Source: an uncultured Chloroflexia bacterium (GTDB lineage Bacteria; Chloroflexota; Limnocylindria; Limnocylindrales; CSP1-4). From it: a stretch of 64,000 nt of DNA. Shown here in pieces: positions 47,072 through 64,000 of the stretch. A model generated the notes under the pieces. That model was not told the DNA's origin. It did no database searches and saw only the letters and a list, made by a program, of their open reading frames with translations. The DNA is taken from assembly GCA_963734535.1 (NCBI GenBank), contig CAVTHS010000007.1:1-64000 (forward strand), read 5' to 3'. The translations under genes were made by a program, and so were the position numbers. Each line of letters opens with the position of its first letter. Positions within the stretch are counted from its first letter, which is position 1.

Positions 47072-47102
47072 GGCTGCCCCCGTCCCGGTGAGCGCCGTGC
47101 GC

Positions 47103-48962
47103 TCACTCGCTGCTCCATTTGACGGTCGACCATCCGAGGCCCGACCAGCTCAGGCCGGACCACGATAGTCCGGACCAGCCCAAGGCGGACCACGATAGAC
47201 CAGACCAGCTCAGGCCGGACCAGGACAGCCCGGACCAGCTCAGGCCGGACCAGGCCGGGCCACTCGATGAGGAGGCACACAGGCAGTCTCCCGTCCACGT
47301 GCGACCGTTCCACTTCCCGTGGTCCCAGCTGTGCCCCTCCGCCACCTCTTCGGCCCATTCTGCCGCGTTCCATGTCGTCCCGAAGATGTCGCGCTCACCC
47401 GCGAGCACTGACGTCCCCGCCTGGACGTGCGCGCCACCCCGTGCCGCCTCCAGCGACCCGGTCCCCGTCGCCCGGGGCCAGACCTGGACGGCGTCGGGGA
47501 CCGGAGCCCGCCCCGCACTCGCAACGTCGAGCAGACCAGCGCCCTGGGCGCCCGGGTCCCCCGACGTGATCGGGACCGCCGTGGACGTGAGGAGCGCCTT
47601 GACCTGGTCAGGCGTCAGTCCCGGTCGCTCGTCGAGCAGGAGTGCCACGGCCCCCGAAACAACGGCCGCCGCCTGGGATGTGCCGCTGCCCCGGAGCAGC
47701 CTGGAGCCGGTTGCGGAGGGAGCCGCGAGGTCCAGCGTCGAGCCCGGGTCGCGCAGCCCCGGGACGTCCACGCCCGGCGCCACGAGGTCCGGACGCCGGG
47801 CCGTGTCCCCGGGGCTGGACCACGAGGGGACGGTGTCGTCGGCCGGGTCGAGCGTGCCCTGGACGTCGGCGGCTCCCACGGCGATGACGTATGGGTCGGC
47901 CGCCGGGTTCGTAAGCGGGCGTCGGTACTCCCCGGCATTTCCGCCCGCTGTCACGACCACGATGCCCTTCCGCCACGCGGCTTCGACGGCGTAGGCCAAC
48001 GGGTCGACCGCATGGTCCTGCAATCCGTCCGTCCCGAATGAGAGATTGAGCAGGCGGATGTTCAGCCCGCCGCTGCGGCGGTGCTCGACCACCCAGTCGA
48101 TTGCCGCGATGACCTGGGACACGTCGGTGAGGCCATCCGCGCTCGCCACCTTCACGCTGACGATCCGCGCCCCGGGGGCGATCCCAGCAAACTCGCCGGC
48201 CTCCGGACGGTCGCCCGAGGCGAGCGCGTCGTCTCGGCCGGCGATGATGCTGGCAAGGTGCGTCCCGTGCCCGAACGTGTCCAGGTAGGGTGGCGCGCCT
48301 GCCTGCCGATCGAATGACAGGTCCGGTCCGTTTACCACCTTGCCGGTTGCCGTCAGGCCGTTGACCGGGACCACGCCAGAATCGATCAGGGCCACGTCCA
48401 CGCCAGCCCCCGTCACGTGGTCGTCCCAGAGCGTGGTGGCCCCGATCGCATCGGCGACGTCCGTGATCGAGCCTGTCGTCGATGCCCCGCCAAGATCGTT
48501 CAAGCTGCTCAGGCTGAGCGCCGCGTTCGGCGTCACCGACGAGACGCCTGGCGCACGCTGCAACGCTGACCTCGCCCAGGGCGAGACGCGGGCCTCGAAT
48601 CCATCGATCAGGGAGAGGCGCACCCCGGCTTCGCCGCCGACATCGCGGACAGCGCGAACCGCTTCGGCGTGGTGCCCGGGCACCTCCCGGACGATGACGC
48701 CGGCCAGGTTGACGGCACGCGCGGAAACACCAGCGCCTCCCGGTCCGGCCAGCAGGACCGCGGCGGCGGTGACGATTGGCACCACGAGGTGCACGCCTGC
48801 CCGGCCGCGAGGGTCCCGGCGGCGAGCGGGCCTGATGGCCTCGTAGCGGTGCGCCAATCCGGGCCTCCGTGGTCGTCGTGGTTGCTTCTGGCCGCGGGCG
48901 GCACCGGCGTGATCCGGCTCGCGTGCGTGTGAATCCGCACGCGTGTCAATCCGGCTGGACAC
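47103..48962 (-). CDS. S8 (subtilisin) serine protease with C-terminal Trp-pentapeptide repeats; start uncertain
   Basis: Catalytic VALIDSG, GHGTH, GTSQAA; tail (WSGLS)n. Confidence 0.9.
   Translation of the reverse strand: MSSRIDTRADSHAREPDHAGAARGQKQPRRPRRPGLAHRYEAIRPARRRDPRGRAGVHLVVPIVTAAAVLLAGPGGAGVSARAVNLAGVIVREVPGHHAEAVRAVRDVGGEAGVRLSLIDGFEARVSPWARSALQRAPGVSSVTPNAALSLSSLNDLGGASTTGSITDVADAIGATTLWDDHVTGAGVDVALIDSGVVPVNGLTATGKVVNGPDLSFDRQAGAPPYLDTFGHGTHLASIIAGRDDALASGDRPEAGEFAGIAPGARIVSVKVASADGLTDVSQVIAAIDWVVEHRRSGGLNIRLLNLSFGTDGLQDHAVDPLAYAVEAAWRKGIVVVTAGGNAGEYRRPLTNPAADPYVIAVGAADVQGTLDPADDTVPSWSSPGDTARRPDLVAPGVDVPGLRDPGSTLDLAAPSATGSRLLRGSGTSQAAAVVSGAVALLLDERPGLTPDQVKALLTSTAVPITSGDPGAQGAGLLDVASAGRAPVPDAVQVWPRATGTGSLEAARGGAHVQAGTSVLAGERDIFGTTWNAAEWAEEVAEGHSWDHGKWNGRTWTGDCLCASSSSGPAWSGLSWSGLSWSGLSWSGLSWSALGWSGLSWSGLSWSGLGWSTVKWSSE
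47106..47255 (-). repeat. 15-bp tandem repeat encoding about ten WSGLS-type units
   Basis: WSGLSWSGLSWSGLSWSGLSWSALGWSGLSWSGLSWSGLGWSTVKWSSE. Confidence 0.9.
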
Positions 48963-49197
48963 AGTAGGTGGACTCTATTCTCCCCACGATCGCGGTCGCG
49001 GTCCATCCCGCAGGTGAGGGGATCGCACCCTGCGCGACAGCCCGGGTCCTGTTGACCCCGGCGATTGGGCGGTACCATGCCCCAGGATGGGGGATAATCC
49101 TCCGAAGGTGGAGAGCCCGGCGGGGTGCTCCCGGGTTACCGGTTTCGGCTCTGGCGTGCGAGAAATCAGGCGCCTGGCAGGGGGAGAGGGTTCGGTT

Positions 49198-50007
49198 ATG
49201 AGCAAGGCCGCGGTGACGGGTCGGATCGCCTCGGCTCCTGATCGGCCGTCCGGCCGACCAGGAGCGCGTGACGGCCGATCCCGGGTCGCGGTCAAGCCGG
49301 GCGACCTGGTCCCCGTGTCTGCCATCCCCGGGGCGACTCGCGTCCTGATCGTCGACGATCACCGGGCGTTCTCCGAGGCGCTCGCCGCCGCGATCGATGG
49401 CAACCTGGACCTCGTCTGTGTCGGCACCCCGACCACGATCGACGAATGCCTTGCCATGGTGGAGACGACCGCGCCGGACGTGGTCCTGCTGGACATCTAC
49501 CTGCCCGACGGCGATGGCATCGAGGCGATCCCGGCGATACGGGCTCGCCATGGCGACGCTCGCATTCTCGTCATGACCGGGTACACCGACGTCGAGGTCA
49601 TGGCGCGGGCGGCCTCGGCGGGAGCGAGCGGCTTCCTGCCAAAGGAGAATTCGATCAGCGCGGTCCTGGCTGCCATTCGGGCGGTTGGGGACGGTCAGAT
49701 GCTCGTCGACGGATCGACCCTCGCTGCGATCCTGGGCCGGGTGGGCCGCGCCGCCCCGGGGACCCGCGCGCTCGACTCCGGCGCCGCCAACCTGACCAGG
49801 CGCGAGCGGGATGTCCTGGACCTCATGGGCCAGGGCCTCGATCCACACGCCGTTGCCGGGAAGCTCGAGATCAGCCTCCACACCTGTCGGGGCTACCAGA
49901 AGAGCATCCTGGCCAAGCTCGACGCGCACAGCCAGCTGGAGGCCGTCGTCGTCGCGGCCCGGCGCGGCCTCATCGCGCGGCTCGGACAAGGACGGGGCCG
50001 CGCCTGA
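49198..50007 (+). CDS. NarL/LuxR family response regulator
   Basis: VLIVDDH, VVLLDIYLPD, FLPK; HTH LTRRERDVL..ISLHTCRGY..KLDAHSQLEAV. Confidence 0.92.
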   Translation: MSKAAVTGRIASAPDRPSGRPGARDGRSRVAVKPGDLVPVSAIPGATRVLIVDDHRAFSEALAAAIDGNLDLVCVGTPTTIDECLAMVETTAPDVVLLDIYLPDGDGIEAIPAIRARHGDARILVMTGYTDVEVMARAASAGASGFLPKENSISAVLAAIRAVGDGQMLVDGSTLAAILGRVGRAAPGTRALDSGAANLTRRERDVLDLMGQGLDPHAVAGKLEISLHTCRGYQKSILAKLDAHSQLEAVVVAARRGLIARLGQGRGRA

Positions 50008-50910: not shown

Positions 50911-51456
50911 GTGCGCGTCGTGGCGTACAGCTGGCTGATGGCCCTCGCGGCCATCGGCCTGCTCAACCTGCTCCACGCGGACCTCCACGAGCATCACGAC
51001 CTCCCCCCGCTCGTTCACTGGCTGCGGGACGCGGCCCTCGCGGTACCCCTCGCCGCGATTGCCGTCCTGGGAGCGGCGTTCCTCGTCCGGGCGCGCACCT
51101 TTCGCCCGCGTGGCGGAGGCGTCTCGTCGATCCCCACGCGTCTCGCCTGGGCGGTCTTCGCCTCCACCTTCTTCGCGATCCTCAGCATCCCCGGGATCCA
51201 GCTCCATGGGCTGTTGTTCGGGGCCGAGGAGGAGTCCGTGGGCTGGCTCGCGGACGCGTTCAAGGACGGAGGCATCACGTTGGCGATCTCCCTCGTCGCG
51301 CTCGTGCCAGCCGCGTTGATCACGGGGCCGCCCTGGCGAGCTGTCCGTGCCGACTTTGGACCTGACCAGGCGCCCGGAGCGACGCTCGCAGCGTCGGCCG
51401 GGTCTTCCGCATTTCTCGCAACCGCGGGATCCACCTACGCCGGAGGCGATCGATGA
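50911..51456 (+). CDS. His-rich 4-TM membrane protein, first gene of the MCO operon (start uncertain)
   Basis: Four hydrophobic helices; LLHADLHEHHDLPPLVHWLRD and QLHGLLFG; stop overlaps the next ORF. Confidence 0.6.
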   Translation: MRVVAYSWLMALAAIGLLNLLHADLHEHHDLPPLVHWLRDAALAVPLAAIAVLGAAFLVRARTFRPRGGGVSSIPTRLAWAVFASTFFAILSIPGIQLHGLLFGAEEESVGWLADAFKDGGITLAISLVALVPAALITGPPWRAVRADFGPDQAPGATLAASAGSSAFLATAGSTYAGGDR

Positions 51457-51524
51457 GCACCCAGGACAACCGCGCCTCCGTGGCAGGCCAGCAACGTTCC
51501 ACCAGCAGTGAGGAGAGCCAGGTA

Positions 51525-54500
51525 ATGGGTCATTCGCGATTCGGCCGCCCGCGGAGGGCGCTCCGCAGGCTGGGATCCCTGCTCGCGGCCGGCATGCTGG
51601 TCGGCTCGCAGCTCCTGGTGCCGGTGGCCCAGGCCGCCCCGATCAATGTCGCTCCTGCAGCGGCCGCGGTCCCGGCCGCCCCGACCAGCACGATCACGCT
51701 CGCTGTCAAGAGCGCGCGCACCGAGCCCCGGGCGTTCGGCGGGGCCGGCGTGACGGTTGGCACGCCCGTCACCTCGTACAAGTGGATGATCAACGAGGAC
51801 AACACGGGCGACACGACCACGCGCAACGCGAACCCCGGGTCGGCCTGTTCCGCGTGGGTCGACGCGCCCGGCGGGACGCCCAACAGCGCCTACCCGGATT
51901 CCTGCCACTGGACCTCGATCTCCGGCCTGCGGAGCTCCGCCCCGGTCGCGGCCCAGGGCGATGAGACGACCCTCAGCGGCACGATCGGCATCTCCAACCT
52001 GGCGCCCGGCCGCTATCTCATCTCGGTCCTGGCCGATGGCTACAAGCTCGACGGGACCCCGTTCACCGTCCCGATGGAAGCGCCCGGCCTCGTCGAGGTG
52101 CCGCTTCAGCCCGTCCCCCTGCCGACCGCCACGATCAAGGCGCAGATCTTCGCCGACGTGACGTCGACCAACGGACAGTACGACCCGGGCGAGGACGGCC
52201 TGCCCGGGTTCGCCGGCTTCATCACCGACTACATCGGCCAGGTCACGACCGACGTCTTCGGCAACCCGCTGTGCACCAAGTACCAGTTCAACGACCTGAA
52301 CAGCAACGGGGTACAGGACCCGGGCGAGGAAATCACCCTCACCGGTGCCCCCGACTACTCCCCGATCGTCACCCACCTCGGCGGCAAGTGCCTGTCGGGT
52401 GACATCAACATGGACGGCGTCGTCAACGGGACGGACGTCGGGCTCTACAGCGATCCCCAGCTCGATCCCGGCGTGCTGACGATCCCGAACCTCGGGCCCA
52501 ACCGCTACGCACTCTCCGCCGTTCCCCCGACCGGCGCCAGCTGGATCCAGACGACCACGCTCGAGGGCAACCACGACTGGGACGCCTGGGTGATGGAGGG
52601 CTCGACCGGCCTCGACACGGAGTTCGTGGTCGCCGGCGAGCCGTTCCCGGCCGAGATCTTCGGCTACGTGCCGGGCCCCACGATGAACAGGTTCGCGCCC
52701 GGCGGGCAGGGCACCATCAAGGGCGTCGTCGACGCCATGAAGGTCTTCGTCCCGACCACGGGCGGCGCCTGCCTCCCCGGCACCATCTGGGGCGGCCTCT
52801 GCGGCGGGAAGGTCGACAAGCCGATCGACCAGCCGTGGATCGCCCTCAGCGACCTCAACAACGGCGACGCCGCGGTGTGGCTGGGTCGTGGCAACGCCGA
52901 CGGCACGTTCACCATCCCGAACGTCCCCAACGGCAGCTACACGATCACCTACTGGGACGACCCCCAGAACTACATCCTGGACCTGCTCAACGTCAGCATC
53001 GTCAACGGCGAGACCGTCGATATGGGCGTCCTGCCGCTGACGGGCTGGTTCACCAAGTACGACGGCTTTGTCTTCGACGACGCGAACCGCAACGGCGTCC
53101 GCGACGCCGGCGAGCATGGCGTCCCGAACTTCACCCTGACGCTGCGCAAGCGTGAGAACTCGCTGATGGACCGGGGCGCGACCCTGGTCACCACCAACGC
53201 CAACGGCTACTACGTCATGGAGAACGCCTACCCGCTCACGGAGTGGCTGGTCCTCGAGGCGTACGACGACCGCTACTACACGACCGGCGTCACCTACCAG
53301 GCCGACAATCAGCCGGCGCCGACCACGGTCCTTGGCGCGGGCGTCGACGTCAGCGTCCTGCCGATCATCGGCCTCTCCGGCACGCTCGACTGGGGCGTCC
53401 ACGCCTACGACGCGACCGGGACCAACGGCGTCGACCCGCAGAACGGCGGCATCGTCGGCTCCGTCAGCTACGACACCACCCGCAACGAGGTGAATCCGCA
53501 GTACGCGGCCGCGGAGGACTGGCAGCCGGGCGTCTCCGGCCTGACCGTGAACCTCTACGCGCCGGTTGACTGCCCGGTCGACCCGACGACGGGCACGACC
53601 ACCGTGCCGTGCGATGCCAACGGCGACTATGCGCTGGCGGCGGATGGTTCGTATGCCCAGGGCAAGCTCCTGAACACGTATGTCACCGAGACGTGGGACC
53701 GGCCGACCGACTGCATCGCCCGCGGCGTCGATGGCGCGCCCCTCCAGAACCCGGCGGACCAGCAGGTCCTCCCGGTGGGCTCAGGCAAGGGTTGCCTCGA
53801 GGGCCCGCTGATGGGCGTCCAGTTCGGGCCATATCCCACGGACCAGGGCACCCCGGACGCCAACTTCGGCGCCGCGGTCGACGGCAACTACGGCTTCGGC
53901 GACGGCTGCTTCGACGGCGTCCTCGATGCCACCGACCCGTCCGCCCCGACCTGCAAGGACGCGACCACGGGCACCGACGTCCCGTTCACCGCGCTCCCCG
54001 CGGCCGACTACCTCGTCCACGTCGATCTTCCGAGCGTGCACGACAACAACGGCACCCCCGTCTACAAGGTCACCCGGGAAGAGGACATCAACATCGCGAC
54101 CGGCGACAGCTATGTGCCGCAGGTCCCGCCGCCCGCCTGCGTCGGCGCGCTCCACCAGGTGGATGTCGCCGGGGCCGGCACCGACAACTACCCGGCCACG
54201 ACCATTGTCGATCCGTCCGGCCTCGGCGCCGCCACGGTCAGCGTTGCGGCTTCGACTCCCGACCGACAACCCGACCTTCGTCGACATCGGCGGCACGCCC
54301 TATGAGGGCCAGGCCAAGCCGCTGTGCGACACGAAGCTCGTGACGCTCCAGAACGGCAAGTCGGTCGTGCCGATGTTCAACGTCTTCACGGACGTGCCGC
54401 TCCCGAGCCGGTTCTTCGCCCTCAACAACGACGACCTCACCTTCTCCACCGATCCGAAGTCGCTGCTCTACGGCGAGAAGGCCGGCATCCCGTTCAGCCC

Positions 54501-57500
54501 GGTCGGCATCTACGACTTCGCCAACCGCCTGGTTACCACCTCCGAGACCGACTACAACGGCCTCTTCGACGTGCTCCTGCCGTCGACGGACCGGATCAGC
54601 TGCCCGACGCCGTCGGGCGTGTGCGGGAACATCTACCGCTTCGTCGGCAACGACCCGGGCGTCCCGGGCCGCCTGAACCTCAACTACAACCCGCAGTACC
54701 GCACGATCGCGGCCGAGTTCGAGGCCTGGCCGGGCATCATCATCCCGGCCGACACGGCGCCGACGCAGGTCGGCGTGAATGTCCAGGTCCCCGGCTCGCA
54801 GACGTTCACGGCGGTCTCCTGCCCGGTCAATGACCCGGCGTCCGCAGCCACGACACCCGAGCTGTACGCGGTTTCGAAGCCGTACGCCAGCGTGACCGAT
54901 GGCGTCGCCGCGCGATCGATCACGATCGACGGACAGGGCTTCGGCGCAAGCCCCGGCCAGGTCACCCTCGGCGGCGACTCCGCTGGCCACCACCTCGTGG
55001 AGCCCCACCCAGATCGCCCTGACAATTCCCGACCACCGCGACCGGCGGGCCGCAGCAGCTCAAGGTCACCGCGGCCAACGGCCGGAGCACCGTCAACGGG
55101 CTCACGTTCCACGTCATCAAGACCAGCGGACGCGGCGGGCCAGTACAACCCGGCCATCTTCGAGGTGGGCCCCGGCAAGACGTATGCGCCCGCCGAGACC
55201 CTCCCCGCGACGGCCGACCACGCCATCCAGCGTGCGCTTGATGCAGCGGCCCTCTTCATCGGCCAGTCCAACCCCAACGCCAACAGGGGCGCCCTGGTGG
55301 TGGTCTACCCGAACAACCCCAGCGCCAATCCGCGCCAGAACCCGCGCGGCGCGTACTACGAGAACCTGATCATTGCGGGCAAGGTCAAGCTGCAGGGCGT
55401 CGGCCCGGGCAGCCCCACCGGCTCCGTGCGCGGCGCGATCATCGACGGCGGCGCGTTCGCCGGCGACAGCCCGGTGGCGACCGACTGGTACACGAAGATC
55501 ACCACCCTGGCCTGGGCCGGGAACCAGACGATCTATGACGGCGCGGTGATCTCGCTCTTCCTGCCGAGCACCGGACGCAACGCCTTCCCGACGTCGTACA
55601 GCGCCACCACGGCGCCGTCGATCGACGGCTTCGACCTCCGCGGCGGCGATCAGCAGGGCTTCCCCGGCAACATCAACGCCATCGGCGGCGGACCAACGGG
55701 GCTGCCCGGCGGCCTCATCACCCAGGGCGGCGCGGTCTTCGCCAACGCCTACGCCCGCAACCTGCAGATCACCAACAACGTGGTCCAGAACAACGGCGGC
55801 GCCTACGGCACCATCCGCATCGGGACGCCGGACCTGCCGGCCCCCGACACCAACAATCACAACGAGGGCGTCCGGATCCTCAACAACCGGGTCATCGCCA
55901 ACGCCGGGACGAACCTGGCGGGCGGGATCGGCATCTTCGCCGGCGCCGACAACTACGAGGTCGCAGCCAACAATATCTGCGGCAACTTCTCGGCCGAGTA
56001 CGGCGGCGGCCTGTCCGTCTACGGCCTCCAGCGCAACACGGGCACGGCGGTCGTCGCCGGCCGCAACTCCATCCACGACAACCGGATCTACTACAACCAG
56101 TCGTACGACGAGGCGGGCGGAATCATGATCGCCGGCCAGCTGCCGGCCGATCCCTCGATCCTTTCGCCGGGATCCGGCCCAGTCGACATCTACGCCAACC
56201 TGATCCAGTCCAACATGGCCAACGACGACGGCGGCGGGATCCGGTTCCTGATGGCCGGCAACTTCCCGATGAACGTCTACAACAACATGATCGTGAACAA
56301 CGTGTCGACCCACGAAGGCGGCGGGATCGCCATCGACGACGCGCCGAACGTTCGGGTCTACGACAACACGTTCATGAAGAACGTCACGACCGCCACGGCC
56401 GTGACCAGCGACGGCCTGCCGGCTCCCGCCGGGCTGTCCACCGGGCAGAACAGCGCCCTGCTCCAGGCAACGCTGCCGGCCGGCTCCCCGACCTTCAGCA
56501 AGCCGCTCCTGTTCAACAACATCTTCTGGGACAACCGGGCGGGCACGCGTTCCGGCGCCACCGTGACCGGCATCGGGGCGGCTGGCGACGCCACGCCAAT
56601 CAACACCTGGGACATGGGTGTCCCCGGCACCAGCAGCCTGCTCTCGCCCACCTACTCGATCCTCCAGGCGACGACCGGGACCGACGTGACCGGGACGAAC
56701 CTCCCGGCCGGCACGTTCAACAAGGTCGGCGTCGATCCGATCGTCGTCTCCGCCGGGAATACGGCGCTGACGTTCGCCCCGTGGCGGACGAACCCCAACT
56801 TCGTCGGCGCGATCCTCGTCGCGGCCGACCTCCCGCCGAACCTGCAGGGTGACTACCACCTGGCGGCCGGCTCGCCGGCCATCAATGCCGGTGCAGCCTC
56901 CAAGGCCGTGCCCGCCCACCAGCAGCCGCCAGCGACGCTTGCTGCACCCTCGACCGACATCGACGGCCAGGCCCGCCCGTCCGGGGGTGGCTTCGACATC
57001 GGCGCCGACGAGCTCGCGGCGGTCGCCGCCGCCAATGCCAGCGTGGCACCGACGTCACTCGCGTTCGGCAGCGTCACCGTCGGCGCGACCAGCGCGGCCC
57101 AGGCCCTGACCCTGAGCAACACGGGCAGCGCGACGCTGTCCGGCATCACCGTGGCCGTCACGGCTCCCTACTCGCGGCCGGCCGGAGCTCCGGGGGGTAC
57201 CTGCGGTACGACCCTGGCCGCCGGAGGCACCTGCACCATCAACGTGGTGTTCAGCCCGACGACCGCGGTCTCGACCCCCGGGACTGCGACCATCACTGCC
57301 AGCGTGCCGGTCACCGGCTCACCGGTGGCGTTGACGGGTACCGGCGTGGCGGCCCCCTCGCTGCCATCGCTGGGCATCCTCGACAACTTCAACCGCGGGA
57401 ACGCCAACACGCTCGGAGGCAGCTGGTACCAGGGGACGCTTTTCGGTGCGGCCTCGATCCGGGTAAACGCCAACCAGGCGTTCGCCATCCTGCCCGGCCA

Positions 57501-57942
57501 GGCGAACCGAACCACCACGTATGGCGCCAAGCAGGGGGCGGCGTTCACGTTCGCCACCGCGCCCGCGACCGGGGCGAGCCTGTTCCTGAAGGTGGCCAAC
57601 GGGGCCGGGTCGAACGCCAACCCGGCCAGCTACATCCGGGTCCAGTACCAGACCACCGGCGGCGGCCAGGTCCTGGTCCAGACCACCACCAACGGCAACA
57701 ACCTTCTCCCCACGTTCACCACGATCGGAACGCTCTCGTCGGGAGCGTTCGCAACGGGCGACCGACTGACCGCAGTGGCCAACGCCGACGGGTCCGTCGA
57801 CGTCTGGAAGACGACCGCGGCGAACGTGACCACCTACGTCGGCCACACGTCGACGTCGACCTTCACGGGTACGGGCCGGATCGGCATCCAGCTCCCGATG
57901 AACGCCCGGATCGACGACTTCCGCGGAGCGACGGTGCCATGA
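51525..57942 (+). CDS. Giant (~2100 aa) secreted protein: SdrD-B-like Ig domains, IPT/TIG, right-handed beta-helix, ASH/choice-of-anchor-like domain; frameshifts near 54260 and 54980-55130
   Basis: Sec signal (..LVPVAQA); Ca-loop motifs DLNSNGVQDPGE, GDINMDGVVNGTD, DDANRNGVRDAGE; NN/GGGI repeats; DYHLAAGSPAINAG..DIDGQARP..DIGADE; SLAFGSV..LTLSNTG. ORFs 51453..54305 and 53926..57942 join across an indel. Confidence 0.8.
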
Positions 57943-57995: not shown

Positions 57996-59357
57996 ATGAG
58001 CGACCACAGTAGGTTGCTGCTCAGCCGGCGTCAGCTGCTGAAGTACGGCGGCGTCACCGCCGTCGCCGCCGGGGTCGCGGGCATCGGCCCGCGGCTGGTG
58101 GAAACCATCCTCAAGCCGGGCCGCGCCCTCGCGGCGGACCAGGAGCCCAACCTCAAGCTCGTCGGGACGGACGGCTGGATCTCCATGCCGCCCGGCCCCG
58201 ACATCAACTCCGCGGCGTACGGCAAGGTCCACCCGGACAGCTACGCACCCCCGAACCGCACCGACTACATATTCGGGTTCGCGAACGGGACCGGCATCTC
58301 CAACGCGGACCTGTACCAGCTCAAGAACAAGGCGCAGCATTCGGCCCCGCTCTTCTGGGCGAAGCAGGGCGACGACTTCCGCGTCCAGCTCACCAACGTC
58401 GGCCTGGCACAGCGCCCGGACCTCTTCGACGCCCACACGCTGCACTGGCACGGCTTCAAGAACGTCATCCCGTTCTTCGACGGCGAGCCAACCGGCTCGG
58501 TGTCGGTCCCGCAAGGCCAGACGTTCACGTACGTCTACAAGTCCCATGACCCCGGCACGTACATGTTCCACTGCCACGTGGAAGACGTGGAGCACGTGCA
58601 CATGGGGATGACAGGCCTCGTCTTCGTGCGGCCGGCCCTGGACGGCAACACGTCCTTCTACGCCAGCGGCAAGTACGCCTACAACGACGGCTCGACCGGC
58701 TTCGACCGCGAGTACGCCATGTTCCTCAGCGAGGTCTGGGCGGACGCCCACTGGGCGGATGCCCACATCCAGCTCCCCGAATGGAGCGACTATCACGCGG
58801 ACTTCAGCCTTCTCAACGGGCGGGCCTATCCGGACACCCTGGAGCCGAACGGCGCGATCTTCTCCGACTTGGGGCTGCCCAACGCGACCTATCCCTTCGA
58901 AGTCGCGCGAGATGCCAGCTACGACCTGACGCCTCCGAGCGGGCCGCGCGGCGCGGACCTGGGCAACCAGCCGATGTCGTCCCTGGTGACCTGCGTGGCG
59001 GGCGAGCGAGTCCTCCTGCGCTTCGCCAACCTCGGCTTCAAGGAAGCCGCGATGACGCTCACCGGCATCAAGCTGCACGTGGTGGGGCGCGACGCGACCC
59101 TCCTCCGCGGCTTCGATTCCACCGATTCGAGCTACGCGACGAACACCGTCGCCCTGGGCGCCGGCGAGAGCTTCGACGCGATCTTCACGGCGCCGGCTCA
59201 TTCCGGCGGATCCGGCCCCGACACGTACGTGCTCTACAACCGGACATACATCCGGGCCGACAACCTCGCCGGCGGCGGCGGCCAGCGCACCGAGGTGCGC
59301 GTCTATCCGTCGGGCGCCCTCCAGCCCCAGAAATACCCCAACGACTGGGGCATCTGA
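57996..59357 (+). CDS. Tat-exported two-domain multicopper oxidase-like protein A (T1 site plus domain-1 His pairs)
   Basis: SRRQLLK twin-arginine signal; HTLHWHG; GTYMFHCHVEDVEHVHMGMTG; domain 2 lacks His motifs. Confidence 0.88.
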   Translation: MSDHSRLLLSRRQLLKYGGVTAVAAGVAGIGPRLVETILKPGRALAADQEPNLKLVGTDGWISMPPGPDINSAAYGKVHPDSYAPPNRTDYIFGFANGTGISNADLYQLKNKAQHSAPLFWAKQGDDFRVQLTNVGLAQRPDLFDAHTLHWHGFKNVIPFFDGEPTGSVSVPQGQTFTYVYKSHDPGTYMFHCHVEDVEHVHMGMTGLVFVRPALDGNTSFYASGKYAYNDGSTGFDREYAMFLSEVWADAHWADAHIQLPEWSDYHADFSLLNGRAYPDTLEPNGAIFSDLGLPNATYPFEVARDASYDLTPPSGPRGADLGNQPMSSLVTCVAGERVLLRFANLGFKEAAMTLTGIKLHVVGRDATLLRGFDSTDSSYATNTVALGAGESFDAIFTAPAHSGGSGPDTYVLYNRTYIRADNLAGGGGQRTEVRVYPSGALQPQKYPNDWGI

Positions 59358-60796
59358 TGAGACCAGCAGTGATGAGTGGAGTGACCACGATGCTTCGAAT
59401 CAGGACCCCGCGCGCCCGCCTCTGGCCGGCGCTCGCGGTCTCGTCGGTGCTGGTCTCCAGCGTGTTGCTGTCGTCGGCCGCCGTGCGGCCGACCGCGGCG
59501 GCGACGCAGGACCCGACCAGGAGCGGCGTCGCCTGCACGACCGACACCGGCCCGAACCCGACGTTCAACCTGACAACCCGGGCCGGCTACATCAACCTGC
59601 CGGACGGGACCACTGCCTACATGTGGGGCTTCTCCGAGGGCAGCCGCCCGTTCCAGCACCCGGGGCCCGTGCTCTGCGTCAACGAGGGTGACACCGTCAC
59701 GATCATCCTGAACAACTCGTTCACGCCGACCTCGCCCAAGAGCGCACCGGCCGTCTCGATCGTGTTTCCCGGCCTGGTGGGCGTCACGGCCGACGGCGCG
59801 CCGTCTCAGCCCCAGTTCGACGGCACCGGGGCATTGACCTCCCTTGCGCAGGCGGCGCAGCCCGGTGGCGGCTCGGTCACGTATAGCTTCGTCGCCTCGA
59901 AGCCCGGCACGTTCCTGTACGAGAGCGGCGGCGGGCAGACGACCACCGGCACCCCGAGCTTCTTCTCCAGCCCGCAGGTCCAGGTCCGCATGGGGCTCTT
60001 CGGCGCCCTCGTCGTGCGACCCACCATGGGCGCCGGATACGCCTACGACCTTGCCGACACCCAGTTCAACCCGGCAACGGAGTTCCTGGCCCTGCTCTCC
60101 GAGGTCGACCCGTACCTGAACGCGGCGGTCCTGAAGGGCACCAGGGCCTTCAACATGAACAACTACCACCCGCGCTACTGGCTGATCAACGGCCGCGGGT
60201 TCCCCGACAGCATCGCCGACAACTTCGCGACCTGGCTGCCCAGCCAGCCCTACGGCTCGCTGGCCACGATCCATCCCAACGACAAGTACCTGGCGGACGG
60301 GGTCACCCTCAACCCGAGCCCGATCAACCCCCTGCCCAGCATCACCCGTTACCTGTCCGTGGGCACCGAGGACTACCCGTTCCATCCCCACGGCAACAAC
60401 GGGAAGGTGATCGGACGCGATGGCGCTCCGCTCGCGGGGCCCGCGGGACAGGACATGTCGTTCGACAAGTTCTCCGTGAACATCGGTCCCGGCCAGACCT
60501 GGGACGTGCTCTTCAGCTGGAGGGACAACGAGAACTACTCGCCGTCCAACCCGGTCCCGGCCAGCGAGCCGAACCTCCAGAACCTCACCGTTGGCATGTT
60601 CTACGGCGGCGGCCCCTACCTCGGCGTCCAGGAGCCGATGCCGCCCGGCATCTCCACGCTCAACGAGTGCGGCGAGTTCTACATCATCGCCCACAACCAC
60701 GCGCTCTACCAGATCACGTCATGGGGCGTGAACATGACCGGGCCGATCACCTACACGCGGGTCGATCCGCCCCTGCCGAACAGCTGCCCGTCGTGA
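59357..60796 (+). CDS. Two-domain multicopper oxidase-like protein B (domain-2 His pairs only); alternative start 59390
   Basis: PGPVLCVNEGDTVTI, YWLINGRGFPD; domain 1 SIVFPG/GTFLYES (no His); domain 2 YPFHPHG and IAHNH. Confidence 0.85.
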   Translation: MRPAVMSGVTTMLRIRTPRARLWPALAVSSVLVSSVLLSSAAVRPTAAATQDPTRSGVACTTDTGPNPTFNLTTRAGYINLPDGTTAYMWGFSEGSRPFQHPGPVLCVNEGDTVTIILNNSFTPTSPKSAPAVSIVFPGLVGVTADGAPSQPQFDGTGALTSLAQAAQPGGGSVTYSFVASKPGTFLYESGGGQTTTGTPSFFSSPQVQVRMGLFGALVVRPTMGAGYAYDLADTQFNPATEFLALLSEVDPYLNAAVLKGTRAFNMNNYHPRYWLINGRGFPDSIADNFATWLPSQPYGSLATIHPNDKYLADGVTLNPSPINPLPSITRYLSVGTEDYPFHPHGNNGKVIGRDGAPLAGPAGQDMSFDKFSVNIGPGQTWDVLFSWRDNENYSPSNPVPASEPNLQNLTVGMFYGGGPYLGVQEPMPPGISTLNECGEFYIIAHNHALYQITSWGVNMTGPITYTRVDPPLPNSCPS

Positions 60797-60807
60797 GAGG
60801 TAGGGGA

Positions 60808-63726
60808 ATGACCATGAGATCGGACCGAACCATGAAGCAAACCATTCTTTCCTCGCTGGTCCTGGGGCCGGCGCTGCTCCTCGCGGCGCTGCTGCTCCCC
60901 GGGGCGGCGGCGGCCGCCGGGCCGATCACCTCGACCGCATGCACGGCGGCCGGCACCGCCGTCACCTGCAACCTCTGGGCCGAGACTGGCAGCCTGCCGC
61001 TGCCGCTGCCGAGCACGTCCGTTACCGTCTGGGGCTTCGCCACTGCGTCGGGTGCGAGCCCGACGGTCCCGGGGCCAGTCCTCGTGGCAACCGCGGGTGA
61101 CACCGTCACGGTGAACCTCGTCAACCACCTGAGCCAGCCGACGTCCATCGTGTTCAACGGCCAGGCGATGGTCCCCGACCTGACCGGGGTCGTCTCGGGC
61201 GGATCCACGTCCTACACGTTCGTCGCCAGCGCCCCTGGGACCTACCTGTACGAGGCGGGTCTCATTCCCGGCTCGCAGTACCAGGTGGCGATGGGCATGT
61301 ACGGCGTGCTCGTCGTCCGCCCGGCTGGAGCCCCCTCACAGGCCTATCCGGACGCCTCCACCGCCTTCGACGGCGAGGCGCTCGTCGTCCTCGGCGAGGT
61401 CGACCCGGCCCTGAACAACAGCCCCACGCCGTGGACGGTCGACCTGCGGTACTTCGCCCCGAAGTACTCGCTGATCAACGGGGCCGCATACCCGGGCACG
61501 GCGTCGATCGACGCCTCGTCCGGCACCAGCCTCCTCCTGCGCTACGCCAACGCGGGCATCCAGCACCACTCGATCGGCGTGCTGGGGCTGCGGCAGTCCG
61601 CGCTTGCCGCGGACGGCAGCCCGACGACGTACCCGCGCGACATGGCCGCCGAGACGATTGCCCCAGGGCAGTCGGCCGACGTGCTGGTGACACTCCCCGC
61701 GACGACCGCCGCCTCCACCAAGTACGCGCTCTACGACGCGAGCTTCACCCTGAACAACAGCACCGCGTCCGGGATGGGCGGCATGCTCACATTCATCGAC
61801 GCGACGCCGAATGGAACGGCCACGGGTGACACCGTCGGCCCGATCACGACGGGCGTTGCAGTCAGCACCACGTCCGGCGCCCTGAGCGCCTCGGTCAGCG
61901 ACCTGACGACCGGCGGATCGAGCGTCGCAGGCGCCGAGTACTTCCTCGACGCGATCGGGCCGAGCGGCACCGGCACAGCGATGACGGGGACCTTCCCGTC
62001 CGATCCGGCAGCCGTCTCGGCGTCGCTCACGCTGCCGAGCGGAAGCCACACGATCTACGTCCATGGCCTCGACAACAGTGCCAATGCGAACTGGGGCGCC
62101 TTCAGCTCCACGACCTACACGATCGACAGCGTCGGGCCCACCACCAGCGCCCTGGTCCTGACTCCCAACCCCTCGAACGGAACCGTCGCTGTCGCCCTCA
62201 GCGGCACCGCCAGCGATGCGGCGACCGGCAACAGCAACGTCGTGGCCGCCGAGTACTTCATCGGGACGCCAGGCCCGGACGGTTCCGGCACGCCGATCAC
62301 CCCCAACACGACGGCGGTGATCGTGAGCCTGACAGCGACCATCTCGCCCCCGGTCTCGAGCGGAGTCGTCTCCGTCCACGCCAGGGACGCCGCCGGCTAC
62401 TGGGGCCCCTTCACGACGATCACCCTCACGGTGGAGGGCACCGGCCCGACGACCTCGGCTGTCGTGACCAACCCGCCCGCCGCCAACAATGGGCAGTACG
62501 GCCAGAGCATCGGCAACCCGTCGGTGCGAGTCAGCGCGACGTTCGTCGACGTCGATAGCACCGTTGCCGCGGGCGAGGGCTTCATCGACACCGTCGGCGC
62601 CAATGGAGCGGGCTTCCCGTTCGTCGCCACCGACGGCGTCTTCAATGCCGCGAGCGAGACCGGCTATGCCGACGTCCCGCTCACGACGATCAACCTGCTC
62701 TCCGCGGGCAACCACACGATCTATGTTCACGGCAAGGATGCGGTGGGTAACTGGGGCGCGACGGCCTCCGTCGTCCTCCTGATCGACAAGACCGCGCCCA
62801 CCTTCACGAGCATCACCCTGGCCGCGGTCAACCCGACGCTCGGGGGTGGCATCACCATGACGGTGAATGGCGCCGTCGATCCGTTGGTCTCGACCCTGGC
62901 CAGCGGCGTCGCCGGCGGCGAGTACTGGATCGACAGGGCCGCACCGACGCCGGGCGGCGGGACGCCCTTCACCGGGCTCACCCCCACCATCCCGGCGGGC
63001 TCGCTCACCACGGGCAGCCACACGGTGGGCGTCCGCGTCCGCGACGGCGCAGGCAACTGGAGCGCGGCCACCCACAGCGCCACCGTCTCCGTTGTCGCGG
63101 TATCCATCTTCTCGAACGGCTTCGACACCGGCTTCGGCCCGTGGGGCTGGACCAGCAGGTCCACCAACAGCACCGCGCGCCTCAATGCCACGACGACGGC
63201 CGCCCTGGTCGGCGCTCGCGGCCTGCAGGCCCAGGGCAACAACACCAACTACGTCCAGTACAACTTCGGGACCGCCGCCCAACCGGCGTGGCCGACCTAC
63301 GACGCACGGTTCTACTTCCGGCCGAACGGCAACACCTCGACCGGCAAGGACATCCTGTCCGCCGCCACGTCGAACTCCTTCGGCACGGTCGACTTCCGCG
63401 TCCGCTATCGGCTGAATGGCGCGACGCCGCAGGTGCAGATCCAGGTGGGGACAGCCAACACCAACGCGACCTGGACCAACATCCTCGGCGGCACATCCAG
63501 CAATGTCATCGAGGTGGTCTGGCAGGCCGCGGGCAGCGTCGGGCCGAACCCGGGCACCCTGACCCTCACGGTCAACGGTGTCCTGGCCCAGACGCTGACC
63601 ACCACGAGCACCAGCTCCGTCGGGGCCGTCCGCCTCGGCTCCGTGACCAATACCGGCAATGCCACCCTGATGTACTTCGATGCCTTCGCTTCCAAGCGTT
63701 CGGTGTCGCCGCTCTTCGGTCCGTAA
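60808..63726 (+). CDS. Two-domain multicopper oxidase-like protein C (no canonical Cu motifs) fused to Ig-like repeats and a C-terminal beta-sandwich
   Basis: VPGPVLVATAGDTVTVNL, TSIVFNG, GTYLYEA, INGAAYP; repeats with AEYF/GEYW and HTIYVHG..NWG; IFSNGFD-initiated last domain. Confidence 0.83.
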   Translation: MTMRSDRTMKQTILSSLVLGPALLLAALLLPGAAAAAGPITSTACTAAGTAVTCNLWAETGSLPLPLPSTSVTVWGFATASGASPTVPGPVLVATAGDTVTVNLVNHLSQPTSIVFNGQAMVPDLTGVVSGGSTSYTFVASAPGTYLYEAGLIPGSQYQVAMGMYGVLVVRPAGAPSQAYPDASTAFDGEALVVLGEVDPALNNSPTPWTVDLRYFAPKYSLINGAAYPGTASIDASSGTSLLLRYANAGIQHHSIGVLGLRQSALAADGSPTTYPRDMAAETIAPGQSADVLVTLPATTAASTKYALYDASFTLNNSTASGMGGMLTFIDATPNGTATGDTVGPITTGVAVSTTSGALSASVSDLTTGGSSVAGAEYFLDAIGPSGTGTAMTGTFPSDPAAVSASLTLPSGSHTIYVHGLDNSANANWGAFSSTTYTIDSVGPTTSALVLTPNPSNGTVAVALSGTASDAATGNSNVVAAEYFIGTPGPDGSGTPITPNTTAVIVSLTATISPPVSSGVVSVHARDAAGYWGPFTTITLTVEGTGPTTSAVVTNPPAANNGQYGQSIGNPSVRVSATFVDVDSTVAAGEGFIDTVGANGAGFPFVATDGVFNAASETGYADVPLTTINLLSAGNHTIYVHGKDAVGNWGATASVVLLIDKTAPTFTSITLAAVNPTLGGGITMTVNGAVDPLVSTLASGVAGGEYWIDRAAPTPGGGTPFTGLTPTIPAGSLTTGSHTVGVRVRDGAGNWSAATHSATVSVVAVSIFSNGFDTGFGPWGWTSRSTNSTARLNATTTAALVGARGLQAQGNNTNYVQYNFGTAAQPAWPTYDARFYFRPNGNTSTGKDILSAATSNSFGTVDFRVRYRLNGATPQVQIQVGTANTNATWTNILGGTSSNVIEVVWQAAGSVGPNPGTLTLTVNGVLAQTLTTTSTSSVGAVRLGSVTNTGNATLMYFDAFASKRSVSPLFGP

Positions 63727-63730
63727 CCCG

Positions 63731-64000
63731 ATGACCACCATCGGACGTTCCGATGGGGACCGCAGCCTCGCGGCTGCGGTCCCCGAAACCCCGGATCCCG
63801 TGCCGGCTCCGCTGGAGCCGGCCGGGCTCACGCCCGCCCGCCGCCTGCGGCGACGCACCTGGCTTGCGGCAGCCGCCGGCGTCGTCCTCCTCCCCCTGGC
63901 CGTGGCCGCGACCCTCACGTACGCGACCTCGGGCGCCGGCGTCCCGTCGAACGCCGACGTCGCGGCCGCCCGCGTCGTGTCTGCAGCCGAGATGGAGCAG
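63731..64000 (+). CDS. Single-TM hypothetical protein, truncated by the window end
   Basis: ATG 4 nt after the previous stop; RRRTW followed by a hydrophobic helix; frame stays open to the end. Confidence 0.55.
   Translation, partial: MTTIGRSDGDRSLAAAVPETPDPVPAPLEPAGLTPARRLRRRTWLAAAAGVVLLPLAVAATLTYATSGAGVPSNADVAAARVVSAAEMEQ

What the first reader, a model, noticed from the sequence alone, without database searches (positions are those of the whole stretch)
57996..63726. Three two-domain multicopper-oxidase paralogs with complementary Cu ligands: candidate obligate heterotrimeric oxidase with one active site
Seen: subunit A has, in domain 1 only, HTLHWHG (~58434) and HCHVEDVEHVHMGM (~58569), i.e. 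a full T1 H/C/H/M set plus two HxH pairs. Its domain 2 equivalents are KEAAMTLTG and YVLYNR (no His). Subunit B is the mirror image: domain 1 is SIVFPG and FLYESGG (no His/Cys), while domain 2 has FHPHG (~60383) and AHNH (~60692). Subunit C has no HxH or HCH motif (only QHHS). Established: two-domain MCOs (SLAC, type C blue copper oxidases) are homotrimers whose T2/T3 cluster sits between domain 1 of one chain and domain 2 of the next, each side giving four His. Inference: no subunit can build a cluster alone, but A-domain1 plus B-domain2 give exactly the eight His of one trinuclear cluster wired to the T1 of A via HCH, with C closing the ring. This would be a split-gene analogue of six-domain, single-cluster enzymes such as ceruloplasmin or MnxG, possibly oxidising extracellular metals or polymers. 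I cannot confirm novelty without a search.
Basis: partly seen in the sequence, partly recalled or inferred. Interest (0 to 1): 0.92.

Follow-up and report, generated by a model that had tools for sequence, protein, structure and literature searches.

The report
Split three-subunit multicopper oxidase operon
Three neighbouring genes encode related copper-oxidase proteins that each lack part of the metal-binding site, so that only two of them together can build one active centre, an arrangement not described before for this enzyme class.

Summary
Window 57996-63726 holds three co-oriented, tightly packed genes for secreted two-cupredoxin-domain proteins. A has a Tat signal, a complete type-1 copper set and four cluster histidines, all in domain 1. 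B has four cluster histidines, all in domain 2. C has no ligands and carries an Ig-like/lectin-like tail.

The split is conserved. A-B-C order holds in 77 of 80 related loci from at least five phyla; the other three contigs end too early. All twelve ligand residues are invariant or nearly so. In a 401-genome sample the three genes co-occur in all 12 carrier genomes.

A complex prediction puts A domain 1 against B domain 2 (ipSAE 0.86, best control 0.00). Solved homotrimers may bias that result.

Natural fusions tie in the neighbours. B-C fusions and fusions of A to the upstream giant beta-helix protein U exist in sister clades.

Best reading: an obligate heteromeric, most likely A1B1C1, two-domain multicopper oxidase with one T1 and one trinuclear cluster. 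It is part of a larger secreted machine (U-A-B-C-D1-subtilase). C's place in the ring, copper content, activity and substrate are untested.

No curated family, close solved structure or paper was found.

The parts
51453..57942 (+). U: giant secreted protein (SdrD-B/prealbumin-like domains, right-handed beta-helix core, Ig-like domain, lectin-like C-terminal domain). In this window it is broken by a frameshift near 54260-54280.
   Evidence: Pfam. U is conserved upstream of A in 66 (N-terminal part) and 74 (beta-helix part) of 80 loci. It is an intact single ORF of 1963-2217 aa in relatives. Beta-helix model pLDDT 86, with weak fold likeness to AlgE4, LnbX and GH28. It is fused to an A unit in 28 long proteins.
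57996..59357 (+). A: Tat-exported two-cupredoxin-domain subunit that carries the only T1 site and half of the trinuclear cluster, both in domain 1
   Evidence: (TAT_signal, TIGR01409)
58434..58454 (+). A residues 147-153, HTLHWHG: T1 His147 plus cluster His150 and His152
   Evidence: 81 of 81 invariant. Aligns to HTIHWHG of PDB 3g5w domain 1.
58569..58610 (+). A residues 192-205, HCHVEDVEHVHMGM: cluster His192 and His194, T1 Cys193, T1 His200, axial Met205
   Evidence: 81 of 81 invariant. Aligns to HCHVNVNEHVTMRGM of 3g5w.
59357..60796 (+). B: Sec-type-signal two-cupredoxin-domain subunit. Domain 1 has no ligands; domain 2 carries the other four cluster histidines.
60380..60394 (+). B residues 342-346, FHPHG: His343 and His345
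   Evidence: 72 and 73 of 73; in the predicted A-B interface
60692..60700 (+). B residues 446-448, HNH: His446 and His448
   Evidence: 73 of 73; residues 441-444 and 447-451 are in the predicted interface
60808..61947 (+). C, N-terminal part: ligand-free two-cupredoxin-domain unit, the proposed third member of the ring
   Evidence: fused behind a B unit in 7 proteins
61948..63726 (+). C tail: Ig-like repeats and a C-terminal domain homologous to the C-terminal domains of U and of the downstream subtilase
   Evidence: weak Big_13 / Y_Y_Y hits; tail hits inside U of L010 and in the subtilase gene
63680..64000 (+). D1: small membrane-anchored protein that runs off the window (to 64312 of the contig). 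Its conserved 105-aa C-terminal domain has an Ig-like sandwich fold.
   Evidence: found in 70 of 80 loci; model pLDDT 91; no specific fold match; no Pfam family

Best explanation
A, B and C are the subunits of one obligate heteromeric two-domain multicopper oxidase, most likely a pseudo-threefold A1B1C1 ring of six cupredoxin domains.

Shown: A domain 1 holds the only type-1 copper site (His147, Cys193, His200, Met205) and four cluster histidines (His150, His152, His192, His194). B domain 2 holds the other four (His343, His345, His446, His448).

Inferred: the two half-sites meet at the A-d1/B-d2 interface and build a single trinuclear copper cluster, wired to the T1 copper through the His-Cys-His triad. 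Electrons taken from a substrate at the T1 site reduce O2 to water at the cluster.

Inferred: C has lost every ligand. It fills the third position of the ring and tethers the enzyme through its Ig-like and lectin-like tail.

Inferred from signal peptides: A leaves the cell through Tat, and B and C through Sec. The cluster can therefore only be completed outside the cytoplasm.

Shown by synteny and fusions, with function inferred: the oxidase is one module of a conserved secreted machine, U (giant beta-helix protein)-A-B-C-D1-subtilase. It probably acts on an extracellular polymer or on the machine's own proteins. The substrate is unknown.
For: Fold: all three hit Cu-oxidase families. A's closest solved relative is the type C two-domain oxidase 3g5w (E 2.3e-15), with both domain 1 motifs aligned.

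Ligand split: searches show homologous columns. One search shows B domain 1 aligned to ascorbate oxidase and Nmar_1354 domain 1 with the His/Cys positions replaced.

Conservation: one search gives A ligands 81 of 81 and B ligands 72-73 of 73. The 64-row alignments agree. Among diverse B-type representatives, 74 of 79 keep both H343 and H345. 60 of the 61 aligned keep H446 and H448. 0 of 77 have His at the domain 1 HxH positions or Cys at the T1 position. The ~50% identical second cluster of the same genome keeps the same split. So do more distant metagenome clades, where 21 of 23 A-like ORFs have both motifs; the two exceptions are cross-hits on contigs without A.

Co-occurrence: B lies next to A in 79 of 80 loci and C follows in 77 of 80. 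The misses have 206, 791 and 1778 bp of room after A. In a 401-genome sample of the phylum, 9, 11 and 12 genomes matched A, B and C at strict E-values. The three genomes with B and/or C but no strict A match also have A adjacent at weaker E-values, so all 12 carriers have all three genes.

Coupling: the A stop and B start overlap (ATGA), and the B-C spacer is 11 nt.

Binding model: A(47-453)+B(50-479) scored ipSAE 0.86, 0.87 and 0.86, with 0.00 for the best of 3 controls. That mark was reached by 58 of 80 solved complexes and 2 of 110 mismatched pairs. The runs agree in at least 98% of contacts and the partner pLDDT is 91. The interface is A 146, 150, 152-172 and 196-202 against B 339-348 and 441-460.

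Fusions: 7 B-linker-C proteins exist, and 28 U-A proteins without an internal Tat motif.

Export: the consensus of A is SRRxFLK with R11 and R12 in at least 90% of rows, plus Tat family hits. The B and C N-termini look Sec-type.
Against: No copper, spectroscopy, activity or stoichiometry data exist.

The complex prediction covers only A+B. Homotrimeric two-domain oxidases are solved, so the high score may reflect likeness to them rather than A-B specificity. A3, B3, A2B and similar assemblies were not modelled.

I had no coordinates, so His-His distances were not measured. H192 and H194 of A and H446 of B are not in the named interface list.

C's membership of the ring is indirect. B and C are separate ORFs in 15 of 16 informative sister-clade loci, so fusion is the exception. 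I could not see the DNA behind the fused proteins.

Five of 79 diverse B-type representatives lack one or both of H343 and H345.

In this genome U carries a frameshift and the second cluster is heavily frameshifted. The system may be decaying here, or the assembly may be error-prone.
Confidence: 0.7

Rival explanations
1. A and B form the active heteromer, but C is not in the ring. C would be a separate ligand-free cupredoxin scaffold or adhesin. The third ring position would be empty (an AB dimer) or taken by a second A or B.
For: Only A-B was modelled. C is the least conserved of the three, with mean column identity 43% against 52-53%. C has a long anchoring tail of its own.
Against: C follows B in 77 of 80 loci and in all 12 carrier genomes. 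It keeps both cupredoxin domains. It is fused to B in 7 proteins. A second A or B in the ring would leave orphan half-sites, whereas C leaves none.
Confidence: 0.15
2. The heteromeric copper site is real, but the enzyme is not an O2-reducing oxidase of organic or metal substrates. It would carry out nitrogen-oxide or other small-molecule redox chemistry, as the nitrite reductase relatives and the archaeal Nmar_1354 do.
For: C and B score best against copper nitrite reductases in the PDB. Two-domain multicopper proteins with nitrogen chemistry exist (PMC11761707, passages read).
Against: The eight conserved histidines in four HxH-type motifs plus HCH are the trinuclear-cluster signature, not the three-His T2 site. 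NCBIfam nitrite reductase scores are 21-36 bits against a cut-off of 296. The operon has no nitrogen-cycle genes. It consists of a giant beta-helix surface protein and a subtilase.
Confidence: 0.08
3. The three proteins work separately. A would be a T1-only electron carrier or homotrimer. B and C would be non-catalytic cupredoxin-fold structural proteins of the surface machine. The His pairs of B would bind some other metal.
For: Ligand-free cupredoxin proteins with non-redox roles are known in this superfamily (recalled: FtsP/SufI). Each protein has its own signal peptide.
Against: There is no reason to keep A's four cluster histidines (81 of 81) and exactly the complementary four in B (72-73 of 73) unless they meet. 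The model places them face to face. The genes never occur apart.
Confidence: 0.05
4. The genes are decaying paralogues of an ordinary two-domain oxidase with no joint function.
For: U is frameshifted here and the second cluster is fragmented.
Against: A, B and C are intact ORFs. They show 55-88% identity across phyla and have dozens of invariant residues.
Confidence: 0.02

Closest known systems
Type C two-domain multicopper oxidase of Nitrosomonas europaea (PDB 3G5W), and homotrimeric 2dMCOs in general
   Same: Two cupredoxin domains per chain. T1 copper in the N-terminal domain with nearly the same motifs: HT(I/L)HWHG and HCHV..(V)EHV.M.GM. The trinuclear cluster is built between two protomers (PMC13151041, Introduction passage read).
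   Different: Known 2dMCOs are homotrimers in which every chain carries both half-sites, giving three clusters. Here the half-sites are divided between two different genes and a third gene has none, so at most one cluster and one T1 per assembly can form.
Six-domain multicopper oxidases (ceruloplasmin, hephaestin; recalled from general knowledge, not from a call)
   Same: A pseudo-threefold ring of six cupredoxin domains with a single trinuclear cluster at one interface and degenerate sites elsewhere.
   Different: Those are single polypeptides. Ceruloplasmin keeps three T1 sites. Here there are three separate genes and one T1. Partial fusions (B-C, U-A) occur in sister clades, but no A-B-C fusion was found.
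Mnx complex of Bacillus (MnxG with MnxE/MnxF; recalled)
   Same: A bacterial multicopper oxidase that works only as a multi-subunit complex encoded in one operon.
   Different: In Mnx all cluster ligands lie in one large chain, and the accessory subunits are small non-cupredoxin proteins. Here the cluster itself is split between two paralogous cupredoxin subunits.
Nmar_1354 of Nitrosopumilus maritimus (PDB 9CCK)
   Same: A two-domain multicopper protein described as an 'alpha-alpha-alpha-prime heterotrimer' (PMC11761707, passages read).
   Different: That heterotrimer consists of one gene product with or without a dangling cupredoxin domain. Every chain has full ligand sets.
Activated coagulation factor VIII (A1/A2/A3-C1-C2 heterotrimer; recalled)
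   Same: Three non-identical units of two cupredoxin domains each form a ring. One unit carries lectin-like anchoring domains at its C-terminus, as C does here.
   Different: It is a proteolytic product of a single chain, is not an oxidase, and is eukaryotic.

Membership tests
Multicopper oxidase superfamily | Cupredoxin domains matching the Cu-oxidase Pfam families | tested here: met
   A, B and C all score above the curated cut-off for PF07732; A also for PF07731 and PF00394
Multicopper oxidase superfamily | A type-1 site (His, Cys, His, usually Met) linked by His-Cys-His to the cluster | tested here: met
   Present in A domain 1 only, 81 of 81. B and C have no Cys at that column (0 of 77).
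Multicopper oxidase superfamily | Eight histidines in four HxH-type motifs for the trinuclear cluster | tested here: met
   Met only by A plus B together: four in A domain 1 and four in B domain 2. No single chain meets it.
Multicopper oxidase superfamily | Four copper ions bound and four-electron reduction of O2 | not testable with these tools
   needs protein chemistry
Two-domain multicopper oxidase, type C (homotrimeric) | Two cupredoxin domains with the T1 site in the N-terminal domain | tested here: met
   A. The definition is from PMC13151041.
Two-domain multicopper oxidase, type C (homotrimeric) | Each chain carries cluster ligands in both domains, so identical chains complete each other | tested here: not met
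   A domain 2 has Thr354/Thr356 and 'YNR' where His is needed. B domain 1 has 'IVF' and 'YESG'. C has none.
Two-domain multicopper oxidase, type C (homotrimeric) | Homotrimeric assembly | not tested
Six-domain multicopper oxidase | Six cupredoxin domains in one polypeptide | tested here: not met
   There are three genes with their own signal peptides. The searches for longer forms found B-C and U-A fusions but no A-B-C chain.
Copper nitrite reductase (NirK) | Match to the equivalog model; T1 plus a three-His T2 site | tested here: not met
   TIGR02376 scores are 29.3, 21.5 and 36.3 bits against a cut-off of 296.3. The ligand set is that of a trinuclear cluster.

The most novel reading that the evidence does not exclude
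The A-B-C ring is a living intermediate between homotrimeric two-domain oxidases and six-domain single-cluster oxidases. It is also the redox head of a large, horizontally mobile extracellular machine. The giant beta-helix protein U, covalently fused to A in sister clades, would hold an extracellular polymer (polysaccharide, phenolic material or a surface fibre). The single copper centre would oxidise or cross-link that polymer. The subtilase and the Ig-like membrane protein D1 would mature or anchor the assembly.
Probability: 0.3. Interest if true: 0.88.

Novelty: new variant of a known kind. Interest (0 to 1): 0.8.

Why it matters
Multicopper oxidases are textbook enzymes. Their evolution is explained by duplication and fusion of cupredoxin domains from a trimeric two-domain ancestor. 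All known members are either homo-oligomers or single chains that carry a complete site.

An obligate heteromer, in which the oxygen-reducing cluster is split between two paralogous genes and a third paralogue is a ligand-free spacer, would be a new quaternary solution. It would also be a natural experiment on how threefold symmetry is broken, since it has one active site instead of three.

The family is not rare. The B-type subunit has 182 clusters at 50% identity with E <= 1e-30. The cassette occurs in Chloroflexota, Actinomycetota, Myxococcota, Gamma- and Betaproteobacteria and Acidobacteriota, judging by record titles.

It also occurs in cultured, tractable strains such as Methylobacter tundripaludum SV96, Cryobacterium, Intrasporangium and Terrabacter. 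The prediction can therefore be tested directly.

The link to a 2,000-residue beta-helix protein points to an unknown extracellular oxidative process in soil and freshwater bacteria.

Tried and rejected
Fold of D1. The conserved C-terminal domain gave a confident model, but only generic Ig-like matches (best E 8.5e-3, TM 0.53; a PCuAC copper-chaperone domain only at rank 48, E 0.096). There was no Pfam family. I therefore do not call it a copper chaperone.

Fold of the U core. It is a right-handed beta-helix with weak, generic likeness to carbohydrate-active enzymes (best E 2.5e-4, TMq 0.36). A profile search of PDB sequences found nothing. I do not assign it an activity.

B domain 2 against solved structures by sequence. 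Neither phmmer nor a profile aligned domain 2. The domain 2 ligand assignment therefore rests on paralogue alignment, conservation and the interface model.

The 'fused' flag was wrong: the best C hit fell on the B paralogue where the contig lacked C. I discarded it and redid the test. B and C lie in different ORFs in 15 of 16 informative loci, and the 16th (L107) is a cross-hit.

Two long proteins, P0132 and P0133, and also P0131, look like read-through or frameshift merges. They have an internal Tat motif or an out-of-frame-looking stretch. I did not count them as fusions.

Literature. Seven searches found no heteromeric two-domain multicopper oxidase. The library lacks most subscription journals. 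No supplements were consulted; they are closed.

I considered mirror-tree or coupling analysis for C and rejected it. 63 paired rows inherited together in one operon cannot separate contact from shared history.

I did not lay reads to decide whether the frameshift in U is an assembly error.

Not done for lack of jobs: A3, B3, C3 and ABC models.

Full report
WHAT IS THERE

The window is high-GC DNA (about 0.69 in this region) from a 3.2-Mb, 14-contig genome bin that is 89.9% complete.

Positions 57996-63726 hold three + strand genes:
- A, 57996-59357, 453 aa.
- B, 59357-60796, 479 aa. Its ATG overlaps A's TGA.
- C, 60808-63726, 972 aa. It starts 11 nt after B's stop.

All three match Pfam multicopper-oxidase cupredoxin families. 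None reaches the cut-off of any curated NCBIfam family. A has a twin-arginine signal (PF10518 and TIGR01409). Its orthologues have the consensus SRRxFLK. B and C start with Sec-type hydrophobic signals.

THE LIGAND SPLIT

A domain 1 carries 147-HTLHWHG and 192-HCHVEDVEHVHMGM. These align with HTIHWHG and HCHVNVNEHVTMRGM of domain 1 of the Nitrosomonas europaea type C two-domain oxidase, PDB 3g5w. That is A's best solved relative (E 2.3e-15).

By the usual reading of these motifs (my knowledge of the family), they give the T1 ligands His147, Cys193, His200 and Met205, and the cluster ligands His150, His152, His192 and His194.

Profile-profile alignment of the three orthologue sets (probabilities 99.8 and 100) shows the following at the same columns:
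- B has VSIVFPG and YESG.
- C has TSIVFNG and YEAG.
- In domain 2, B has PFHPHG where A has AAMTLTG and C has QHHSIGVLG.
- B's second domain 2 pair is AHNH, where A reads YNR and C reads YDA.

So A has a T1 site plus half a cluster in domain 1, B has the other half in domain 2, and C has nothing. No chain can complete a cluster with copies of itself. That holds if the canonical geometry applies, in which the cluster lies between domain 1 of one protomer and domain 2 of the next (PMC13151041, Introduction passage).

IS IT CONSERVED?

A is highly conserved and widespread. 3497 proteins scored E <= 0.001 among the 8000 candidates scored, and the best 120 are 62-100% identical.

A scan of one genome per species returned 125 relatives, of which 80 loci were kept. 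By record titles they come from:
- Chloroflexota;
- Actinomycetota (Cryobacterium, Intrasporangium, Terrabacter, Phycicoccus and others);
- Myxococcota;
- Gammaproteobacteria (Methylobacter tundripaludum SV96 and others);
- Burkholderiales;
- one Acidobacteriota bin.

B lies directly after A in 79 of 80 loci and C after B in 77 of 80. The three incomplete loci end 206, 791 and 1778 bp after A.

In alignments of the orthologues all eight A ligands are 81 of 81. B His343 is 72 of 73 and His345, His446 and His448 are 73 of 73. C has no invariant His among 72 sequences.

The tool-made 64-row alignments give the same invariant lists.

An exhaustive search with B found 1608, 919 and 182 cluster representatives at E <= 1e-3, 1e-10 and 1e-30. 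Among the 79 listed representatives of 400 aa or more:
- 74 keep both His343 and His345;
- 60 of the 61 that align there keep His446 and His448;
- none of 77 has His at the domain 1 HxH columns or Cys at the T1 column;
- 14 of 77 have a single relic His at column 189, the column of A's His192.

A second cluster in the same contig (70087-83412, about 50% identical and broken by many frameshifts) keeps HTIHWHG, HCHNEDVEHVQMGM, PFHPHG and HSH. More distant clades in metagenome contigs do the same.

DO THE GENES EVER OCCUR APART?

In 401 genomes sampled across the phylum, A, B and C matched in 9, 11 and 12 genomes at strict thresholds. The three genomes with B and/or C but no strict A match (G194, G250, G285) turned out to have A next to B at weaker E-values. 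All 12 carriers therefore have the three genes together.

The cassette was not found in the two other genomes of the same genus. In the same family it was found in only 1 of 23 genomes. The distribution is patchy and suggests horizontal transfer. In Methylobacter the six-gene cassette sits between housekeeping genes (RNase PH, Ham1, YicC).

DO A AND B TOUCH AS PREDICTED?

- The score (ipSAE) was 0.86, 0.87 and 0.86 in three runs. The best of three controls scored 0.00.
- That mark was reached by 58 of 80 solved complexes and 2 of 110 mismatched pairs in the tool's calibration, which holds only roughly with my own alignments.
- The runs agree in at least 98% of contacts and the partner pLDDT is 91.
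- The confident interface is A 146, 150, 152-162, 164-172 and 196-202 (domain 1, around the cluster histidines), plus 260-266 and parts of domain 2.
- On the other side it is B 339-348, 361-375, 388-422 and 441-460. Apart from residues 234 and 271-273, these all lie in domain 2, around His343, His345, His446 and His448.

Caveats: solved homotrimeric two-domain oxidases may let the model place any two such chains this way. I had no coordinates to measure His geometry. A3, B3 and ABC were not modelled.

IS C PART OF IT?

The evidence is indirect:
- C's synteny is universal.
- It keeps the two-domain fold.
- A ring of three with B before A needs a third unit whose domain 1 meets A domain 2 and whose domain 2 meets B domain 1. 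Only C fills that place without leaving an orphan half-site.
- Seven natural proteins (P0124-P0130, 866-1177 aa, from three sources) consist of a B unit with HxHG and HSHA, a conserved Ig-like linker and a ligand-free C unit.

Against this, in the metagenome loci of that sister clade B and C are separate ORFs in 15 of 16 informative cases. I could not inspect the DNA of the fused forms.

THE LARGER UNIT

Upstream of A lies U (51453-57942). It has SdrD-B and prealbumin-like domains. Its core is 48-75% identical across the 74 loci where it matched and folds as a right-handed beta-helix (pLDDT 86). That core has only weak likeness to mannuronan epimerase, lacto-N-biosidase and GH28 enzymes.

U precedes A in 66-74 of 80 loci and is one ORF of 1963-2217 aa in relatives. 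Here it has a frameshift near 54260-54280. By eye there is also a probable compensated pair around 54950-55140.

Of 34 long relatives of A, 30 combine a U-like beta-helix with a C-terminal A unit. 28 of these lack an internal Tat motif and look like genuine U-A fusions of about 800-2250 aa, most of them 2000-2250 aa. All 34 keep both A motifs.

Downstream follow D1 (63680-64312) and a subtilase:
- D1 is a membrane-anchored protein with an Ig-like domain. It occurs in 70 of 80 loci and has no specific fold match.
- The subtilase carries Ig-like repeats and a tail homologous to C's tail.

The conserved operon is therefore U-A-B-C-D1-subtilase. Fusion evidence links U to A and B to C, and the model links A to B.

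MECHANISM

Shown: the ligand complementarity, its conservation, the co-inheritance, the export signals, and the fusions.

Inferred:
- one T1 and one trinuclear cluster per assembly;
- electron flow from a substrate at the T1 of A through Cys193 and His192/His194 to the cluster shared with B, where O2 is reduced;
- assembly and copper loading outside the cytoplasm, because A is a Tat substrate while B and C are Sec substrates with conserved cysteine pairs (B Cys60, Cys107, Cys438 and Cys477);
- C as spacer and tether.

Unknown: the substrate. The beta-helix partner and the lectin-like tails suggest an extracellular polymer.

COMPARISON AND NOVELTY

The nearest known family is the homotrimeric type C two-domain oxidase. 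These proteins share its fold, T1 position and motifs, but fail its defining property that each chain carries both half-sites.

Functionally the assembly would resemble six-domain, single-cluster oxidases (recalled). It is encoded by three genes, however, and no A-B-C fusion was found.

The only 'heterotrimer' of a two-domain multicopper protein that the searches turned up is Nmar_1354. That is one gene product with or without an extra domain.

No curated family, close solved structure or paper describes a split-cluster heteromer. The paper library is incomplete.

I rate this a new variant of a known kind, of high interest, with 0.7 confidence in the heteromer reading.

Noticed in passing
window 51453-57942: The giant gene U is interrupted by a frameshift near 54260-54280, relative to intact 1968-2217-aa orthologues. 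A P/R/S-rich stretch around 54950-55140 replaces a TIG-like domain seen in a close relative (P0132) and looks like a compensated double frameshift. This could be an assembly error or real decay.
   Followed up: partly
L089 (G000:C7:70087-83412, outside the window): There is a second, about 50% identical U'-A'-B'-C'-D1' cluster 6 kb downstream, cut into many frames. It keeps the same A/B ligand split.
   Followed up: partly
window 58749-58766 and 58992-58994 (A His252, His257, Cys333): Two further histidines in the linker motif AHWADAH and one extra cysteine of A are invariant in 81 of 81 orthologues. They are not canonical copper ligands. Neighbouring residues 260-266 lie in the predicted A-B interface. 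They could form an extra metal or substrate site.
   Followed up: no
window 59534-60787 (B Cys60, Cys107, Cys438, Cys477): Four cysteines of B are invariant or nearly so, probably forming two disulfides. This fits Sec export and folding outside the cell, whereas A uses Tat. The partners of one metal site would then travel by different export routes.
   Followed up: partly
window 63680-64000, continuing to contig position 64312: D1 is a small membrane-anchored protein with a conserved Ig-like C-terminal domain and a variable Met/His-containing loop. It occurs in 70 of 80 loci and has no family or specific fold match.
   Followed up: yes
window 62900-63726; 57100-57942; L089 2062-3645: The C-terminal domain of C is homologous to the C-terminal domains of U and of the downstream subtilase (about 51-58% identity in some pairs). 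Three proteins of the operon thus share one targeting or binding module.
   Followed up: partly
window 43364-50007 and L089 668-4390: Regulatory and processing genes flank the cluster. They are a hybrid PAS/GAF histidine kinase (43364-47149, - strand), an S8 subtilase (47103-48974, - strand), a LuxR-type response regulator (49018-50007, + strand), a second subtilase with Ig-like repeats (from contig position 64668) and a second LuxR regulator (67779-68390, - strand). LuxR-type and subtilase genes recur in 33-39 of the 80 loci.
   Followed up: partly
proteins P0135-P0164 and P0124-P0130 (other organisms): Sister clades hold natural fusions of U to A (28 proteins) and of B to C (7 proteins). One U-A fusion, P0147, is labelled by NCBI as coming from a Bathyarchaeia bin.
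   Followed up: yes
B-type representatives, column of B residue 189: 14 of 77 diverse B-type proteins have a His where A has cluster ligand His192 (YHSG instead of YESG). This looks like a relic of a once complete domain 1 site.
   Followed up: no
L020, L022 and about eight other loci: About 1 kb of extra coding sequence lies between B and the cupredoxin part of C. It appears to be an N-terminal Ig-like extension of C or an extra gene.
   Followed up: no
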